From: a virus
DNA: 64,000 nucleotides
Strand: one strand, 5' to 3'
Virus record (IMG/VR): IMGVR_UViG_3300020056_000007
The notes under the pieces are model-generated. The model searched no databases, was not told the DNA's origin, and was given only the letters and a program-made list of their open reading frames with translations. Both the position numbers and the translations under genes were made by a program. Shown here in pieces: positions 8,360-58,156 of this stretch (positions are counted from its first letter, which is position 1; every line of letters begins with the position of its first letter).

Positions 8360-8768
8360 ACTTATTGAGTGGTCTCCAGCAAGTATGTTGGAAATTACTT
8401 TAAATGAGCCAGATGATTTTCTTAAAGTAAAAGAAACATTAACTCGTATTGGTGTAGCATCCAGAAAAGATAATAAATTATATCAATCCTGTCATATTTT
8501 ACATAAACAGGGAAGATACTTTATTGTTCATTTCAAAGAATTATTTTTATTAGATGGGAAAAAATCTAATTTAGAAGAAAACGATTTAGCACGTAGAAAT
8601 ACCATTGCACAATTAATGAGTGATTGGGGCTTAATTTCAATTGAAAGAAAAAAAGTTGAACCATTAGCTCCATTAAGACAAATAAAAATTATTTCATATA
8701 AAGATAAGAATAATTGGGAACTTTGTCCAAAATATAATATAGGCAATAAAAGTGAGAAAGTGGCTTGA
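8346..8768 (+). CDS. regA: Translational repressor RegA
   Basis: DDFLKVKETLTRIG, LYQSCHILHKQGRYFIVHFKELF. Confidence 0.95.
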   Translation: MEENKLIEWSPASMLEITLNEPDDFLKVKETLTRIGVASRKDNKLYQSCHILHKQGRYFIVHFKELFLLDGKKSNLEENDLARRNTIAQLMSDWGLISIERKKVEPLAPLRQIKIISYKDKNNWELCPKYNIGNKSEKVA

Positions 8769-9381
8769 TCGTAATAGTATCAATTTAGATATATCAAACA
8801 AATGCACAATAGAATGTCCAAAATGTATAAGAAATATATTTTCTAATAAAAAAGATATTCCAGGTCATTATATGACTAATAATGAATGGTATAATTATTT
8901 AAATCATTTTGATAATTTTGTATTTTCTGGTCAAATATCTGATCCTATTCTTCATCCCTCATTTGATAAAATATTAAATGATGTTTATAAAAGTAATAAG
9001 AAATGTAGTGTGCACGTTGCTTCAAGTCATAAACCTTCTAAATGGTTTGAAAAATGTTTTAAGGCCAATCCAAATGCTAAATGGATTTTTGGAATAGATG
9101 GTTTACCAAAAGATTCTCATAAGTATAGAATAAATCAAGATGGTGAAAAACTTTTTGATATGATGTTATTATCAAAAGCTTTTGTAAAAGAAACTGTATG
9201 GCAATATATTGTTTTTAAATATAATGAAAACAATATTAAAGAAGCTAATGAAATAGCAAGAAAAAATAATATAACATTTTTACCTTTAATTACTAGTAGA
9301 TTTACTGAAGATGATCCATATAAACCTTCACCTGAATATAGAATGAATCGAAATGACTGGCGAAAAAAAGTGGAATCCTAA
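8752..9381 (+). CDS. Radical SAM protein
   Basis: CTIECPKC (CxxxCxxC), GQISDP, FGIDG. Confidence 0.8.
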   Translation: MRKWLDRNSINLDISNKCTIECPKCIRNIFSNKKDIPGHYMTNNEWYNYLNHFDNFVFSGQISDPILHPSFDKILNDVYKSNKKCSVHVASSHKPSKWFEKCFKANPNAKWIFGIDGLPKDSHKYRINQDGEKLFDMMLLSKAFVKETVWQYIVFKYNENNIKEANEIARKNNITFLPLITSRFTEDDPYKPSPEYRMNRNDWRKKVES

Positions 9382-9667
9382 ATGCTTAACAGAAAATAAA
9401 CCATTTGCATCGACTGCTGATGGTTATCTTATTCCATGTTGTTGGTGTGATAAAGTTTCTCAACACCCCGACTTACCTAAAGATCCTTTATTAGCTGATT
9501 TATTTGATGAAGAATTAAAAACAGAACATAATAGTATTTCGCATATATTAAAAAGTAAACAATGGAAACGATTTTATAAAGCTATAAAACTTGGTTATGA
9601 ATATGCACCTAAAAGATGTCAATATTATTGTTATAGAATAAATGAAATGCAAAAAAAATCTTTATAG
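9353..9667 (+). CDS. Cys-rich SPASM/Twitch-like Fe-S protein
   Basis: C...GYLIPCCWC...CQYYC, directly after the radical SAM gene. Confidence 0.6.
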   Translation: MTGEKKWNPKCLTENKPFASTADGYLIPCCWCDKVSQHPDLPKDPLLADLFDEELKTEHNSISHILKSKQWKRFYKAIKLGYEYAPKRCQYYCYRINEMQKKSL

Positions 9668-31629: not shown

Positions 31630-32106
31630 TTACCAACGACCTTGACCTTTTCCTATTAACCAAAGTACAAATCCAGTTATTGCGAGTCCAAATACAACAA
31701 GAAGAGTTCCTACTGTCCATTCTATAATTTTTTGTTTCATTTCTTCTTTAGCATAAATCGCTTCTTTTTGCTCTTTACGCATTTGTGCTTCAATTCTTAT
31801 TATTTCATCCCAGGCAGATGGTCCATAATATAGACTGATGTAAGAGCGAAGTTCCTCGCGCATTTCTTGCGCCTTCTTTTTATGCATCCACACTTCCATC
31901 GCGTTGGCCTCTACACCACCGCCAAGTTTTTTATACCATGGAGGTTTCTCTGCTTTGTTATGTGCATAATCTAAATCTGAAATGGCTTTTGACCATTGGC
32001 TGAGCTGCGAGCCCATATCTTGGATCTCTTTGCCCATACTTATAGCTTGTTTTATACCATTATAGGCCGTCGTAGCTAGGCCTATCGCTGTTACTGGATC
32101 TATCAT
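31630..32106 (-). CDS. Hypothetical membrane-anchored protein (late)
   Basis: MIDPVTA start, C-terminal TM helix, minus-strand TATAAATA upstream. Confidence 0.7.
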   Translation of the reverse strand: MIDPVTAIGLATTAYNGIKQAISMGKEIQDMGSQLSQWSKAISDLDYAHNKAEKPPWYKKLGGGVEANAMEVWMHKKKAQEMREELRSYISLYYGPSAWDEIIRIEAQMRKEQKEAIYAKEEMKQKIIEWTVGTLLVVFGLAITGFVLWLIGKGQGRW

Positions 32107-32178
32107 TATGAACTCTTTTGTTTAAGTTAAGATAATAAAACTCAAAGTCTTAATGATATACTTTCGCCCTCTACAGTA

Positions 32179-32186
32179 TATTTATA
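32179..32186 (-). promoter_or_regulatory. Late promoter, minus strand
   Basis: tatttata = TATAAATA on the minus strand. Confidence 0.65.
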
Positions 32187-32227
32187 AACAGTGACACTTT
32201 TGTTTATATTAAATAAAAAATAAAGTG

Positions 32228-32256
32228 TTTACATTTCTTAAAAGTTTTGATATAAT
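32228..32256 (+). promoter_or_regulatory. Early-type promoter for the tmRNA
   Basis: gTTTACA-17-TATAAT. Confidence 0.75.
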
Positions 32257-32262
32257 ATATAG

Positions 32263-32319
32263 TATGGTAGATGTTAGAGGACAGACAGGACTCGGGGGCG
32301 GTACCCGACGCCTCCACCA
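32263..32319 (+). ncRNA. ssrA: Two-piece tmRNA, acceptor piece (3' half of the tRNA-like domain ending CCA)
   Basis: GACTCGGGGGCGGTACCCGACGCCTCCACCA; CGCCTCC pairs with GGGGGCG at 32580, including the G3-U70 alanine identity pair; 5' end approximate. Confidence 0.9.
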
Positions 32320-32577
32320 TAAATACACTAGGAGTGATTATGCCCGATGATGAAAACAAAAAAATTGTAGAAGTAAAAAACGAACCAAACTCATTTGAGT
32401 TAATGTTAAGAGTTTTAGGAAATGAGTTTATTGGAATTAGATTAGCATCAACAAATGCTAGTGGTAAAATGATTTTATGGGCTATATTACTATTATTCTT
32501 TACTTTCATGATTATGGAAGTCTTTGGATTCAATCAGTATTTTACTGGAATTGATTATTACGAGTAGTGTATTTATG
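32318..32577. repeat. 13-bp perfect inverted repeat bracketing the tmRNA intervening segment
   Basis: cataaatacacta (32318-32330) / tagtgtatttatg (32565-32577). Confidence 0.9.
32340..32567 (+). CDS. 75-aa single-TM protein nested in the tmRNA intervening segment
   Basis: AGGAG RBS at 32330, ATG 32340, hydrophobic helix ILWAILLLFFTFMIMEVFGF, TAG inside the right repeat arm. Confidence 0.7.
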   Translation: MPDDENKKIVEVKNEPNSFELMLRVLGNEFIGIRLASTNASGKMILWAILLLFFTFMIMEVFGFNQYFTGIDYYE

Positions 32578-32579
32578 AT

Positions 32580-32715
32580 GGGGGCGAACTAGGATCGACT
32601 GATGTTTGAGTCTACGAAAAATAACTGCAAACGATAACTTTGCACCTTCAGATTACGCTTTAGCGGCATAATGCTGACGGGTTGGGCACTTACCTTGGAA
32701 CAGAAAAGTGTCACC
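32580..32715 (+). ncRNA. ssrA: Two-piece tmRNA, coding piece; tag ANDNFAPSDYALAA (32627-32671)
   Basis: GGGGGCGAACTAGGATCGAC 5' end, ataact-GCA resume context, tag ending ALAA-stop; 3' end approximate. Confidence 0.92.
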
Positions 32716-32742
32716 ATTAATTTAAATCAAAGGAAGAAAAAT

Positions 32743-33126
32743 ATGAAAAATATTCTTGTAGCAGCTGCCCTTGTTGCAGTAAGCTCACTAGCCGCTAATG
32801 CAAATGAGCTAGGCGGTGGATTCAGTTGGAATTTAGAAACAACAGCTGAACATAACGTAGATACCGAAGTAAGTACATGGACAATCACGCCAGAATTAAA
32901 TTATGACATGATGGGTTTGCTTAATTTAGAAGTATCTTCAAAACTTAATTTGTACGATGGTACAGATTGGGCATGGGATGAAACTACTCATCTTACAGAA
33001 CCAACAATTAATTTTGAAGCTTCAAAAGAAGTTGTAGCAAATGCAGAAATTTATGCTAAAACTGGCTATGACTTCAAAACAGATGATATGACAGATGTCA
33101 CTGTTGGAGTTACTTGGAGCTGGTAA
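32743..33126 (+). CDS. Small outer-membrane beta-barrel protein
   Basis: Signal peptide ending ANA, alternating beta-strand pattern, C-terminal VGVTWSW beta-signal. Confidence 0.7.
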   Translation: MKNILVAAALVAVSSLAANANELGGGFSWNLETTAEHNVDTEVSTWTITPELNYDMMGLLNLEVSSKLNLYDGTDWAWDETTHLTEPTINFEASKEVVANAEIYAKTGYDFKTDDMTDVTVGVTWSW

Positions 33127-33203
33127 TATATAAACTATAGGGTCACTACTTAATAGGTGCGCGGTGGGCCACGGTTAGCCCACCATCATATGCATGGATT
33201 AAT

Positions 33204-34136
33204 ATGAATTATTTTGAATTAAAACCTGAAGAAAACACATTTTCAAATATTGTAATAGATCTTACTCATAGATGTAATATGGAGTGCGCTAATTGTTATA
33301 TCCCAAATAGAGATATTCCAGATCTAAATAAAAATAAACTATATGAGTTTTTATCTAAACTTCCTCATAGAACATATATAAGATTAATTGGTGCTGAACC
33401 AACAATGCGTGATGATTTGCCGGAAATTATATCTACGGTTAAAAAGCTTGGTCATCGCCCAAGTGTAACTACTAATGGATTAAAACTAGCTAGAAGAGAA
33501 TATGTAAAACAACTAAAAAATGCTGGTCTTAGATTATTACTTCATAGTATGAATGGTGCCGATGATGATATGGCATATAAAGAATTGGATAATGGTAATT
33601 GGGCTACAGTTAAAGTAAGAGCATTAGATAATATATTTGCTGAAAGACTACCAATTAATACTGGTACTATTATCGCTCGTGGTGTAAATGAATACATAAT
33701 GAATAGACAAGTAGAAGTGTTTGCTGAAAGAGCAATAAAGTCTGGAATCAATTTTAATACTACTGCTCCATATAATAGAATTACACCAGTTTTAAGAATG
33801 AAATCTGTAGGTGCAATCGGTAGATATATGGAAGGAGTGTCTTATACAATTGATGAATTAATTGAAATGGCAAGTTATAGATTAGGCGTAAATAAATCAG
33901 ATATGATTCAAACATCTGCGGGTGTTGTTAAAGCTGGTCCATCAATGGAGGCTTTAACATCTTGGATGTTTCCATATGAAACAGAAGCTGGTAAAATATT
34001 AATTAGACTTATAGATTGGCAAACTGATGATGATGGTGTTATCGATCATGATAATCCAAATAGAGGTAGACTTACCGAAAATTTTACAGTAGCACCTTTC
34101 TTTGAACATGTTAAAGTAAATGAGAACAATTACTAA
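33204..34136 (+). CDS. Radical SAM enzyme (MoaA-like core)
   Basis: CNMECANC, GAEPT, TTNG. Confidence 0.85.
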   Translation: MNYFELKPEENTFSNIVIDLTHRCNMECANCYIPNRDIPDLNKNKLYEFLSKLPHRTYIRLIGAEPTMRDDLPEIISTVKKLGHRPSVTTNGLKLARREYVKQLKNAGLRLLLHSMNGADDDMAYKELDNGNWATVKVRALDNIFAERLPINTGTIIARGVNEYIMNRQVEVFAERAIKSGINFNTTAPYNRITPVLRMKSVGAIGRYMEGVSYTIDELIEMASYRLGVNKSDMIQTSAGVVKAGPSMEALTSWMFPYETEAGKILIRLIDWQTDDDGVIDHDNPNRGRLTENFTVAPFFEHVKVNENNY

Positions 34137-57915: not shown

Positions 57916-58156
57916 GTCTCAGCGGGCAAGCTTTAATCAAAGAATGGAATTTTGGAATAAATATCCAGAATTAAAAAATGCTTGTAAATTATTTTGGACT
58001 GTAAAAGGACATTTACCTGCAGAAGATACAATTTTAGCTTCTGCAAATGGTTATTTCAAAAGACTTTGGCATGATGAAGAGGCATATATTCATGAAGAAG
58101 GGTGGGAAGAAGCTTTTTTTCAATTTATTGAAAAAAACTATGTACATTCCGATTAA
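57860..58156 (+). CDS. Hypothetical protein
   Basis: ORF track. Confidence 0.5.
   Translation: MVTDEVDLTVYVMMLKAHESQRASFNQRMEFWNKYPELKNACKLFWTVKGHLPAEDTILASANGYFKRLWHDEEAYIHEEGWEEAFFQFIEKNYVHSD

What the first reader, a model, noticed from the sequence alone, without database searches (positions are those of the whole stretch)
32228..32715. Permuted two-piece tmRNA whose excised intervening segment is a complete protein-coding gene
Seen: after its own promoter come the acceptor piece ending CGCCTCC-A-CCA (32319), a 260-nt spacer, and the coding piece from GGGGGCG (32580) with tag ANDNFAPSDYALAA. The spacer is closed by a perfect 13-bp inverted repeat that would extend the acceptor stem. Its loop is filled exactly by an AGGAG RBS and a 75-aa TM-protein ORF whose TAG is the start of the right arm. 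Established: alphaproteobacterial tmRNAs are permuted and the normally short spacer is cut out by RNase P and 3' processing. Inference: tmRNA maturation releases a stem-protected mini-mRNA, so processing and translation of this protein may be coupled. The left arm also contains CATAAATA, a late-promoter variant that could express the ORF separately. I know of no described gene nested this way.
Basis: partly seen in the sequence, partly recalled or inferred. Interest (0 to 1): 0.88.

Follow-up and report, generated by a model that had tools for sequence, protein, structure and literature searches.

The report
Protein gene inside phage tmRNA spacer
An uncultured marine T4-like phage carries a two-piece ribosome-rescue RNA (tmRNA) gene, and the 260-base spacer that maturation normally discards holds a real, conserved gene for a 75-residue membrane protein, so one transcript probably serves as both stable-RNA precursor and messenger.

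Summary
Rfam finds a complete permuted (two-piece) tmRNA at 32267-32715. The acceptor piece ends ACCA at 32319 and the coding piece starts at 32580. The 260 nt between them are closed by a perfect 13-bp helix. They are filled by AGGAG plus a 75-codon ORF whose TAG opens the right arm.

- **The ORF is a real gene.** It has 35 viral-contig homologues and dN/dS of about 0.1. Half of the homologues are ordinary free-standing genes, often just downstream of the tmRNA.
- **The nesting is recurrent and does not disable the tmRNA.** The ORF is nested in 18 of 36 loci, in two protein subclades, with three covarying acceptor stems and intact degradation tags.
- **The helix is not special to the ORF.** It is the covarying spacer-closing helix of this phage tmRNA lineage.
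- **Other phages use the spacer the same way.** In my sample 23 of 114 phage tmRNAs hold other small ORFs in the spacer, against 0 of 119 bacterial ones.
- **The CATAAATA "late promoter" is not conserved.**

Release of a stem-protected mRNA, and coupling of translation to processing, remain untested. I found no paper describing this layout. This scan has reported the same layout on other phage DNA before.

The parts
32228..32256 (+). sigma-70-type (T4 early-like) promoter, TTTACA-17-TATAAT with TG extension
   Evidence: 11 of 12 matches. It ends about 10 nt before the tmRNA 5' end.
32267..32319 (+). tmRNA acceptor piece. GUAGAU (32267-32272) pairs with the coding piece. T-arm 32292-32308; acceptor 3' strand 32309-32315; discriminator A 32316; CCA 32317-32319.
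   Evidence: Rfam RF04321 and RF01849 alignments
32320..32579 (+). intervening sequence (spacer) absent from mature tmRNA, 260 nt, 28% G+C
32318..32330 (+). left arm of the spacer-closing helix. It includes the CA of CCA.
   Evidence: covariation across loci
32330..32334 (+). Shine-Dalgarno AGGAG, 5 nt before the ATG
   Evidence: GGAG-like motifs sit at the same place in relatives.
32340..32567 (+). 75-aa single-pass membrane protein gene (unnamed phage family). The stop TAG forms the first three bases of the right arm.
32565..32577 (+). right arm of the spacer-closing helix. It is followed by AU and then G1 of the coding piece.
32580..32715 (+). tmRNA coding piece. Acceptor 5' strand GGGGGCG at 32580-32586; GUCUAC pairs with the acceptor-piece 5' end; 3' tail.
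32627..32671 (+). tag reading frame ANDNFAPSDYALAA plus TAA

Best explanation
This is a working-looking permuted alpha-type tmRNA gene of a marine T4-like (pelagimyophage-like) phage. The loop of its intervening sequence has been occupied by an ordinary small phage gene.

One promoter (32228-32256) makes a precursor with this order: acceptor piece, CCA, left arm, SD, 75-codon ORF, stop inside the right arm, coding piece. The closing helix clamps the two distant halves of the acceptor stem together. That lets RNase P cut before G32580, and 3' processing can then trim back to CCA at 32319, as in other two-piece tmRNAs.

The ORF has its own AGGAG and ATG. It is translated from the precursor and/or from the spacer-containing processing intermediates, giving a small inner-membrane protein of unknown role. 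The protein has a disordered N-terminus, an amphipathic helix and one transmembrane helix.

The spacer costs the tmRNA nothing once it is removed, and it sits behind a strong promoter. In this phage group it has therefore become a recurrent slot for small genes that also exist as free-standing genes.

Shown here: the anatomy, the selection on the ORF, the integrity and covariation of the tmRNA, and the recurrence. Inferred: transcription as one unit, translation, the cleavage sites, and any coupling.
For: **The tmRNA is real and intact**
- Rfam scores lie above both cut-offs.
- Nested loci keep three compensating acceptor-stem variants: CGCCTCC/GGGGGCG, CACCTCC/GGGGGTG and CTCCTCC/GGGGGAG. All keep G3:U70.
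- Tags are intact: ANDNFAPSDYALAA, ANNNFAPSGYALAA, ANDNFAPSGLRLAA and ANDNFAIEGYALAA.
- ARAGORN independently calls permuted tmRNAs around the nested ORF in L005 and L029.

**The ORF is a real gene**
- There are 35 related viral-contig loci at 53-87% identity and 76 metagenome protein clusters.
- dN/dS is 0.07-0.28 among nested copies, for example 33.5 synonymous against 8.5 non-synonymous differences between L005 and L008. The median is 0.15 over 172 pairs.
- Free-standing homologues sit in ordinary operons.

**The helix is a selected RNA element**
- Arms pair 8.75 of 10 variable positions with their own partner, against 6.24 with arms from other loci. Many pairs change on both sides.
- The helix is predicted in both the minimum-energy and the centroid folds.

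**Single transcription unit**
- The strong promoter lies directly upstream, and the pattern scan found no terminator-like site across 31900-33300.

**Recurrent slot**
- 23 of 114 sampled phage tmRNAs have arm-to-arm ORFs from about 13 other families.
- At least five of those families also occur free-standing.
- Their pN/pS is mostly 0.2-0.5.
- 0 of 119 bacterial tmRNAs with the same acceptor sequence have a spacer over 82 nt (Fisher p = 5e-15).
Against: - There are no RNA or protein data. Translation, the cut sites and the order of events are inferred.
- In the best-studied analogue, the Coxiella 23S rRNA intervening sequence, the embedded ORF is apparently not translated in vivo and the excised RNA is degraded quickly (PMC4990558).
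- Part of the SD region is weakly paired in the predicted fold.
- The tmRNA body here is short: 47 nt from G1 to the resume codon, so pseudoknot 1 is reduced. The same short body occurs with a 26-nt spacer in L024, so it is not a consequence of the insertion.
- The viral and bacterial samples were each capped at about 120 rows and selected by one acceptor-piece pattern. The frequencies are therefore rough.
Confidence: 0.75

Rival explanations
1. The gene is expressed on its own from an internal late promoter (CATAAATA at 32318-32325), independently of the tmRNA precursor.
For: The octamer matches 7 of 8 positions of the T4 late consensus TATAAATA (consensus from my own knowledge; sequence).
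Against: - The motif is not kept in nested relatives: CATAAATG, CAAAATTG/A, CATAATTA, CATAAACA.
- It lies inside a helix whose sequence covaries for pairing.
- Exact TATAAATA motifs in relatives lie upstream of the whole tmRNA.
- A start there would leave only about 10 nt of leader.
Confidence: 0.07
2. Competition rather than release. Only the unprocessed precursor is a messenger. RNase P cleavage and 3' trimming destroy the ORF RNA, so each transcript yields either protein or tmRNA, and the ratio is set by the race between ribosomes and RNases.
For: - After RNase P cleavage the spacer is a 3' trailer that must be removed back to CCA (established tRNA and tmRNA processing; PMC3985003).
- In about half of the other spacer ORFs, and in the L002/L003 copy of this gene, the stop codon lies inside the mature coding piece. 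Only the uncut precursor can then terminate normally.
- Excised Coxiella intervening-sequence RNA is short-lived.
Against: - In the window the stop lies 12 nt before the RNase P site, so the cut RNA still has a usable stop.
- The 13-bp helix would shield the new 3' end from exonucleases (inference).
- There are no data either way.
Confidence: 0.3
3. The insertion inactivated the tmRNA, and the locus is a decaying relic that merely surrounds a gene.
For: - Rfam scores (60-67 bits) are lower than for relatives with short spacers (90-129 bits).
- ARAGORN finds nothing in the window.
Against: - The score loss is the insertion penalty plus the short body type.
- Compensatory acceptor-stem changes, a kept G3:U70, intact tags ending LAA and a kept inter-piece helix hold across nested loci. 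Those loci are saturated at synonymous sites of the ORF.
- ARAGORN also misses short-spacer relatives L062 and L024.
Confidence: 0.04
4. The ORF is not translated, and its conservation reflects RNA structure needed for tmRNA folding.
For: The region folds better than shuffles.
Against: - Substitutions are concentrated at synonymous sites.
- The same protein is conserved in loci with no tmRNA within the fetched flanks and with unrelated flanks.
- Other spacers carry unrelated ORFs or none.
Confidence: 0.02

Closest known systems
Circularly permuted two-piece tmRNA genes of Alphaproteobacteria and of marine T4-like phages (Caulobacter; OM43 phage Melnitz, pelagimyophages; Rfam RF01849, RF04321; PMC3985003, PMC9004378)
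   Same: The gene order is acceptor piece, spacer, coding piece. The T-arm, G3:U70 and ALAA-type tag are shared. Maturation is presumed to use RNase P plus 3' processing.
   Different: Described spacers are treated as discarded RNA. In 119 bacterial genomes with the same acceptor sequence the spacers are 3-82 nt (median 34) and GC-rich. Here the spacer is 260 nt and is a complete gene.
Group I introns with LAGLIDADG homing endonuclease genes in the tmRNA T-loop (PMC11915505)
   Same: A protein gene is nested inside a tmRNA gene and removed from the mature RNA.
   Different: Those are self-splicing mobile introns whose exons are re-ligated, and the protein serves the intron's own spread. Here there is no intron core (no Rfam intron hit) and no ligation. 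The two pieces stay separate and the cargo is an ordinary small phage gene.
tRNA-Ala gene inside the intervening sequence of one permuted tmRNA (PMC11915505, called 'a unique feature')
   Same: A second gene sits in the tmRNA spacer and is freed by the same processing enzymes.
   Different: That cargo is a stable RNA in a single sequence. Here the cargo is protein-coding and recurrent across many phages.
23S rRNA intervening sequences with an ORF, e.g. Coxiella burnetii IVS encoding S23p (PMC4990558)
   Same: A stem-bounded spacer is cut out of a stable-RNA precursor, leaving a fragmented functional RNA, and the spacer holds an ORF.
   Different: The Coxiella ORF lacks a good RBS, is decaying and seems untranslated, and excision is by RNase III. 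Here the ORF has AGGAG, shows dN/dS of about 0.1 and has free-standing homologues.
tRNA-mRNA co-transcripts cut apart by RNase P or RNase E (E. coli tufB operon, T4 tRNA cluster; my own knowledge)
   Same: One transcript yields stable RNAs and messengers through tRNA-processing enzymes. L062 and L016 show this simpler layout, with the same gene directly after the tmRNA.
   Different: There the cistron lies beside the stable RNA. Here it lies between two halves of one functional RNA.

Membership tests
Permuted two-piece tmRNA (RF04321 / RF01849) | Covariance-model score above the curated cut-off over the full model | tested here: met
   67.5 bits against 47, and 60.3 against 50; model positions 1-213 and 1-355
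Permuted two-piece tmRNA (RF04321 / RF01849) | Acceptor piece (T-arm, 7-nt 3' strand, discriminator, CCA) encoded upstream of the coding piece, which starts with the complementary 5' strand | tested here: met
   32292-32319 and 32580-32586
Permuted two-piece tmRNA (RF04321 / RF01849) | G3:U70 alanine identity pair | tested here: met
   GGGGGCG pairs with CGCCUCC. The pair is kept in all three covarying stem variants.
Permuted two-piece tmRNA (RF04321 / RF01849) | Tag reading frame with an alanine resume codon, ending ALAA plus stop | tested here: met
   ANDNFAPSDYALAA at 32627-32671. Tags are intact in all nested relatives.
Permuted two-piece tmRNA (RF04321 / RF01849) | Pseudoknots flanking the tag (PK1, PK2) | tested here: inconclusive
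   Only 47 nt lie between G1 and the resume codon, and the alpha model shows large deletions there. The same short body occurs in L024 with a 26-nt spacer.
Permuted two-piece tmRNA (RF04321 / RF01849) | Cleavage into two RNAs, alanylation, SmpB-dependent tagging | not testable with these tools
   This needs RNA and biochemical work.
Protein-coding gene (unnamed small membrane protein family of marine T4-like phages) | Start signal, open frame and purifying selection | tested here: met
   AGGAG-N5-ATG; dN/dS 0.07-0.28 among nested copies
Protein-coding gene (unnamed small membrane protein family of marine T4-like phages) | Homologues in unrelated genomic contexts | tested here: met
   14 loci have no tmRNA in the fetched flanks. 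Others lie 0.02-2.9 kb downstream of the tmRNA.
Protein-coding gene (unnamed small membrane protein family of marine T4-like phages) | Detected protein product | not testable with these tools
   There is no proteomic or ribosome-profiling data.
Group I intron with homing endonuclease gene | Intron catalytic core; nuclease domain in the ORF | tested here: not met
   There is no intron family in the Rfam scan and no Pfam or PHROG hit for the ORF.
T4-type late promoter at 32318-32325 | TATAAATA kept at the same place in relatives | tested here: not met
   the octamer varies as the helix covaries

The most novel reading that the evidence does not exclude
The spacer is a dedicated expression slot in which protein synthesis and tmRNA maturation are mechanically coupled.

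- Every spacer ORF runs from arm to arm. All 19 distinct ORF-filled spacers of 100 nt or more, and every nested copy of this gene, end in or beyond the right arm.
- A terminating ribosome must therefore melt the clamp helix that presents the acceptor stem to RNase P.
- RNase P in turn sets the messenger's 3' end 12 nt after the stop.
- In sister arrangements where the stop lies inside the coding piece, cleavage would create a non-stop messenger that the tmRNA itself would target.

The dose or timing of these small proteins would then be set by tmRNA processing, or the reverse.
Probability: 0.25. Interest if true: 0.88.

Novelty: new variant of a known kind. Interest (0 to 1): 0.76.

Why it matters
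- **A "discarded" spacer is coding.** It shows that the spacer of a stable-RNA precursor can be a selected messenger. It also shows that phages repeatedly use the tmRNA spacer as a place to keep and swap small genes.
- **It is directly testable.** It offers a natural system for asking how translation and RNase P / 3' processing share one RNA.
- **Natural controls exist.** The same gene is found nested, adjacent to the tmRNA, or far from it.
- **Annotation is affected.** ARAGORN misses this tmRNA. Gene callers extend the ORF to a 98-aa form that starts inside the acceptor piece (P0002). Censuses of phage tmRNAs and of small phage genes are therefore both distorted.

Tried and rejected
- **ARAGORN on the window** found nothing. 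This is not simply a length limit. It finds L005, L029, L120 and L121 but misses short-spacer L062 and L024.
- **Close cultured relatives.** There is no megablast match in 50,697 phage records. The ORF gives no tblastn match there. The nearest DNA polymerase is 55% identical.
- **Cultured phages with permuted tmRNAs.** DSS3P8 has a 106-nt GC-rich spacer with no arm-to-arm ORF. HTVC008M's whole Rfam match is only 210 nt, which leaves room only for a short spacer; my script did not locate its coding-piece start. Neither offers a ready experimental system.
- **Function of the protein.** There are no Pfam or PHROG hits. The protein atlas gave only phage hypothetical clusters. The AlphaFold model has pLDDT 66 and shows only helix 18-36, a transmembrane helix at 40-61 and a short C-terminal helix at 64-69. 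I did not run a fold search on so small and uncertain a model.
- **Riboswitch or other known RNA in the structured GC-rich spacers.** Nothing reached the gathering score.
- **My first regular expressions** missed the G:U pair and the L002/L003 tmRNA. This was corrected.
- **Rfam at the gathering score** also misses the 443-nt-spacer tmRNA of L002/L003.
- **Whole genome.** None is held for this window.
- **Sharkady and Williams 2004** could not be read.

Full report
**What is there.** The window is part of an uncultured marine T4-like myovirus. It encodes a gp43-type DNA polymerase, a gp41-type helicase, a gp46-like nuclease and ribonucleotide reductase, and has about 33% G+C. It has no close cultured relative.

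Rfam calls a full-length permuted tmRNA (RF04321, 32267-32671, 67.5 bits; RF01849, 32224-32715, 60.3 bits). Both alignments show one long insertion between ...CCUCCACCA and GGGGGCGAA....

Read directly:
- The T-arm is 32292-32308.
- The acceptor 3' strand is 32309-32315, the discriminator A is 32316 and CCA is 32317-32319.
- The spacer is 32320-32579 (260 nt).
- The acceptor 5' strand is 32580-32586, with G3:U70 kept.
- The tag frame 32627-32671 reads ANDNFAPSDYALAA.

A near-consensus sigma-70-type promoter (TTTACA-17-TATAAT, TG-extended) ends about 10 nt before the RNA. The pattern scan found no terminator-like site anywhere in 31900-33300, including the stretch before the next gene at 32743.

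**The spacer.** CATAAATACACTA (32318-32330) and TAGTGTATTTATG (32565-32577) form a perfect 13-bp helix. It stacks on the acceptor stem in both the minimum-energy and the centroid folds (z = -4.1). The loop holds AGGAG (32330-32334), ATG 32340 and a 75-codon frame. Its TAG (32565-32567) forms the first three bases of the right arm. None of 300 interior shuffles gave an ORF this long.

**The ORF is a real gene.**
- A back-translated scan of viral contigs found 35 loci encoding homologues at 53-87% identity. The large protein collection holds 76 clusters, all unnamed and without Pfam domains.
- All complete copies keep an open frame of 68-89 codons and a conserved core: NEFEL.LR..GNE..AI.LA..N.SGK, followed by a hydrophobic segment ending FFTFMIMEVFG.
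- Pairwise Nei-Gojobori estimates give dN/dS of 0.07-0.28 between nested copies. Synonymous sites are often saturated, for example 33.5 synonymous against 8.5 non-synonymous differences for L005 against L008. The median is 0.15 over 172 pairs.
- AlphaFold2 on a 39-sequence alignment predicts a disordered N-terminus, helix 18-36 and a transmembrane helix at 40-61, with pLDDT 66.
- No function could be assigned.

**Nested and free-standing copies.**
- *Nested.* With a corrected search allowing the G:U pair, the gene lies inside a tmRNA spacer in 18 of 36 loci: the window, L002/L003, L004, L005-L013, L029-L032 and the truncated L035. Rfam and ARAGORN agree for most of these.
- *Free-standing.* Elsewhere it is an ordinary gene. 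It starts immediately after the tmRNA 3' end in L062. In L016/L017 one short ORF separates it from the tmRNA. It lies 1.4-2.9 kb downstream on the same strand in L024, L039, L082, L087, L129 and L135. No tmRNA lies in the fetched flanks of 14 loci.
- *L001.* The gene sits just upstream of a tmRNA that has its own non-coding 105-nt spacer. It still carries an arm-like inverted repeat on both sides.
- *Synteny.* The tmRNA sits at a syntenic position after the cell-wall hydrolase and DUF3310 genes.
- *Two subclades.* Nested copies fall in two protein subclades and in tmRNAs of two body types, with resume codons at +47 and +81. L005 and L029 nevertheless share an identical arm-SD-start context, ACATGGAGAAGATATG. 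This points to recombination at the slot rather than a single frozen event.
- *Two genes in one spacer.* L002/L003 carry two genes in a 443-nt spacer: a DUF6356 protein (Pfam E = 6e-11) and this gene. There the gene reads 27 nt into the mature coding piece.

**The tmRNA is not disabled.** Nested loci show three compensating acceptor-stem variants, all keeping G3:U70. They keep intact tags ending LAA and a conserved inter-piece helix GUAGAU/GUCUAC. This holds although the embedded ORFs are saturated at synonymous sites. The short body type also occurs with a 26-nt spacer in L024, so it is not damage from the insertion.

**The helix belongs to the tmRNA, not to the ORF.** I examined 135 phage tmRNAs. 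The CA of CCA and the following 9-12 nt pair with the bases ending 2 nt before G1. This gives 48 distinct arm pairs, on coding and non-coding spacers alike. In a fixed register, arms pair 8.75 of 10 variable positions with their own partner but 6.24 with other loci's arms. Double changes are frequent, for example A-U, G-C and U-A at positions 5-7.

CATAAATA is simply one state of this covarying arm. Relatives read CATAAATG, CAAAATTG, CATAATTA and CATAAACA. Exact TATAAATA motifs lie upstream of the whole tmRNA in L004, L005, L008 and L029.

**A general phage habit.**
- The same 32-nt acceptor pattern retrieved 114 complete viral tmRNAs with spacers of 8-215 nt (median 66.5; 40 are over 82 nt). 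It retrieved 119 alphaproteobacterial ones with spacers of 3-82 nt (median 34). Fisher p = 5e-15.
- Of the 31 viral spacers of 100 nt or more, 23 (19 distinct) are AT-rich and filled arm-to-arm by an ORF of 29-68 codons. Most have a GGAG-like motif just after the left arm. The other 8 are GC-rich and non-coding.
- These ORFs fall into about 13 further families. Most pN/pS values are 0.2-0.5 where members differ.
- At least five of these families also occur as free-standing genes. One (the L120/L121 family) has a free-standing homologue in this very window at 57968-58129.
- Every such ORF ends in or beyond the right arm. About half stop at the TAG ten bases into the coding piece, so RNase P cleavage would leave them without a stop codon.

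**How it most likely works.** One transcript from the promoter at 32228 serves as both pre-tmRNA and messenger. The clamp helix brings the acceptor-stem halves together across 260 nt. RNase P cuts before G32580. The spacer then hangs on the acceptor piece as a 3' trailer until it is cut or trimmed back to CCA; this follows established tRNA and tmRNA processing (PMC3985003).

Ribosomes load at AGGAG/ATG on the precursor or on these intermediates. From known ribosome footprints (my inference), a ribosome at the TAG would cover about the 13 bases of the right arm. It would therefore transiently open the clamp. Whether the spacer is released as a stable, stem-protected messenger is not known. It is equally unknown whether translation and processing compete or cooperate.

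**Comparison with what is known.** Two-piece tmRNAs in pelagimyophage-like phages are published, found with ARAGORN, without mention of spacer content (PMC9004378). The 2025 tmRNA database paper covers 11,946 permuted sequences. It notes only a tRNA-Ala ('a unique feature') and a repetitive element in intervening sequences, plus homing endonuclease genes in group I introns of the T-loop (PMC11915505). The nearest analogue in concept is the ORF-bearing 23S rRNA intervening sequence of Coxiella, whose ORF seems untranslated and decaying (PMC4990558). Full-text searches found no description of a protein gene in a tmRNA spacer.

**Earlier notes of this scan.** The scan's own unchecked AI notes report the same layout on at least eight other phage genomes. 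My counts were made independently and agree with their gist.

**Verdict.** This is a real feature. It is a new variant of a known kind of gene (permuted tmRNA), and the expression mechanism is untested.

Noticed in passing
window 57968-58129: This is a free-standing homologue (33-38% identity, tblastn E down to 6e-7) of the small ORF that fills the tmRNA spacer in L120 and L121. The window thus carries one small gene in the spacer and, as an ordinary gene, another that sits in the spacer in other phages.
   Followed up: partly
L002:2798-3240 (same in L003): The tmRNA has a 443-nt spacer holding two overlapping genes: a 69-aa DUF6356 protein (Pfam E = 6e-11) and the homologue of the window's gene. 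The latter's frame runs 27 nt into the mature coding piece. Rfam at the gathering score and ARAGORN both miss this tmRNA.
   Followed up: yes
L001:270-720: The closest homologue of the window's ORF lies just upstream of a tmRNA, not inside it. It still has an arm-like inverted repeat (CCATAAACATA...TATGTTTAT) on both sides. That tmRNA has its own 105-nt GC-richer non-coding spacer that begins with an SD-like TTGGAAG remnant.
   Followed up: partly
L062:5620-5800: The spacer is a short 25-nt hairpin whose loop reads TTAGGA. The homologue of the window's ORF starts right after the tmRNA 3' end. This looks like the simple co-transcribed layout from which nesting could arise.
   Followed up: partly
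window 32271-32567: Gene callers also record a 98-aa form of the ORF (P0002, 23 contigs) that starts at an ATG inside the tmRNA acceptor piece. Homologues and the SD show that the true start is 32340.
   Followed up: yes
window 32672-32745: The pattern scan of 31900-33300 found no terminator-like site. Only 27 nt (32716-32742) separate the tmRNA 3' tail from the next gene (32743-33126, signal peptide, weak outer-membrane beta-barrel match). The tmRNA is probably embedded in a longer polycistronic transcript.
   Followed up: partly
L157:875-1308 (Roseobacter phage DSS3P8, KT870145.1, record about 8467-8900): A GOLLD RNA (Rfam 150.7 bits, at the cut-off of 150) lies directly upstream of the phage's unannotated permuted tmRNA (record 9093-9391), whose 106-nt spacer is GC-rich and non-coding.
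   Followed up: no
L089, L040, L056, L074, L152, L133 spacers: Spacers of 99-127 nt with 41-64% G+C and no arm-to-arm ORF look like structured RNAs. No Rfam family reaches the gathering score in them.
   Followed up: partly
L120, L149, L112, L038, L086, L142 spacers: These spacer ORFs lack a stop before the RNase P site and end at the TAG ten bases into the coding piece (C-termini ...MMGAK/N). After cleavage they would be non-stop messengers, which are the natural substrate of tmRNA itself.
   Followed up: partly
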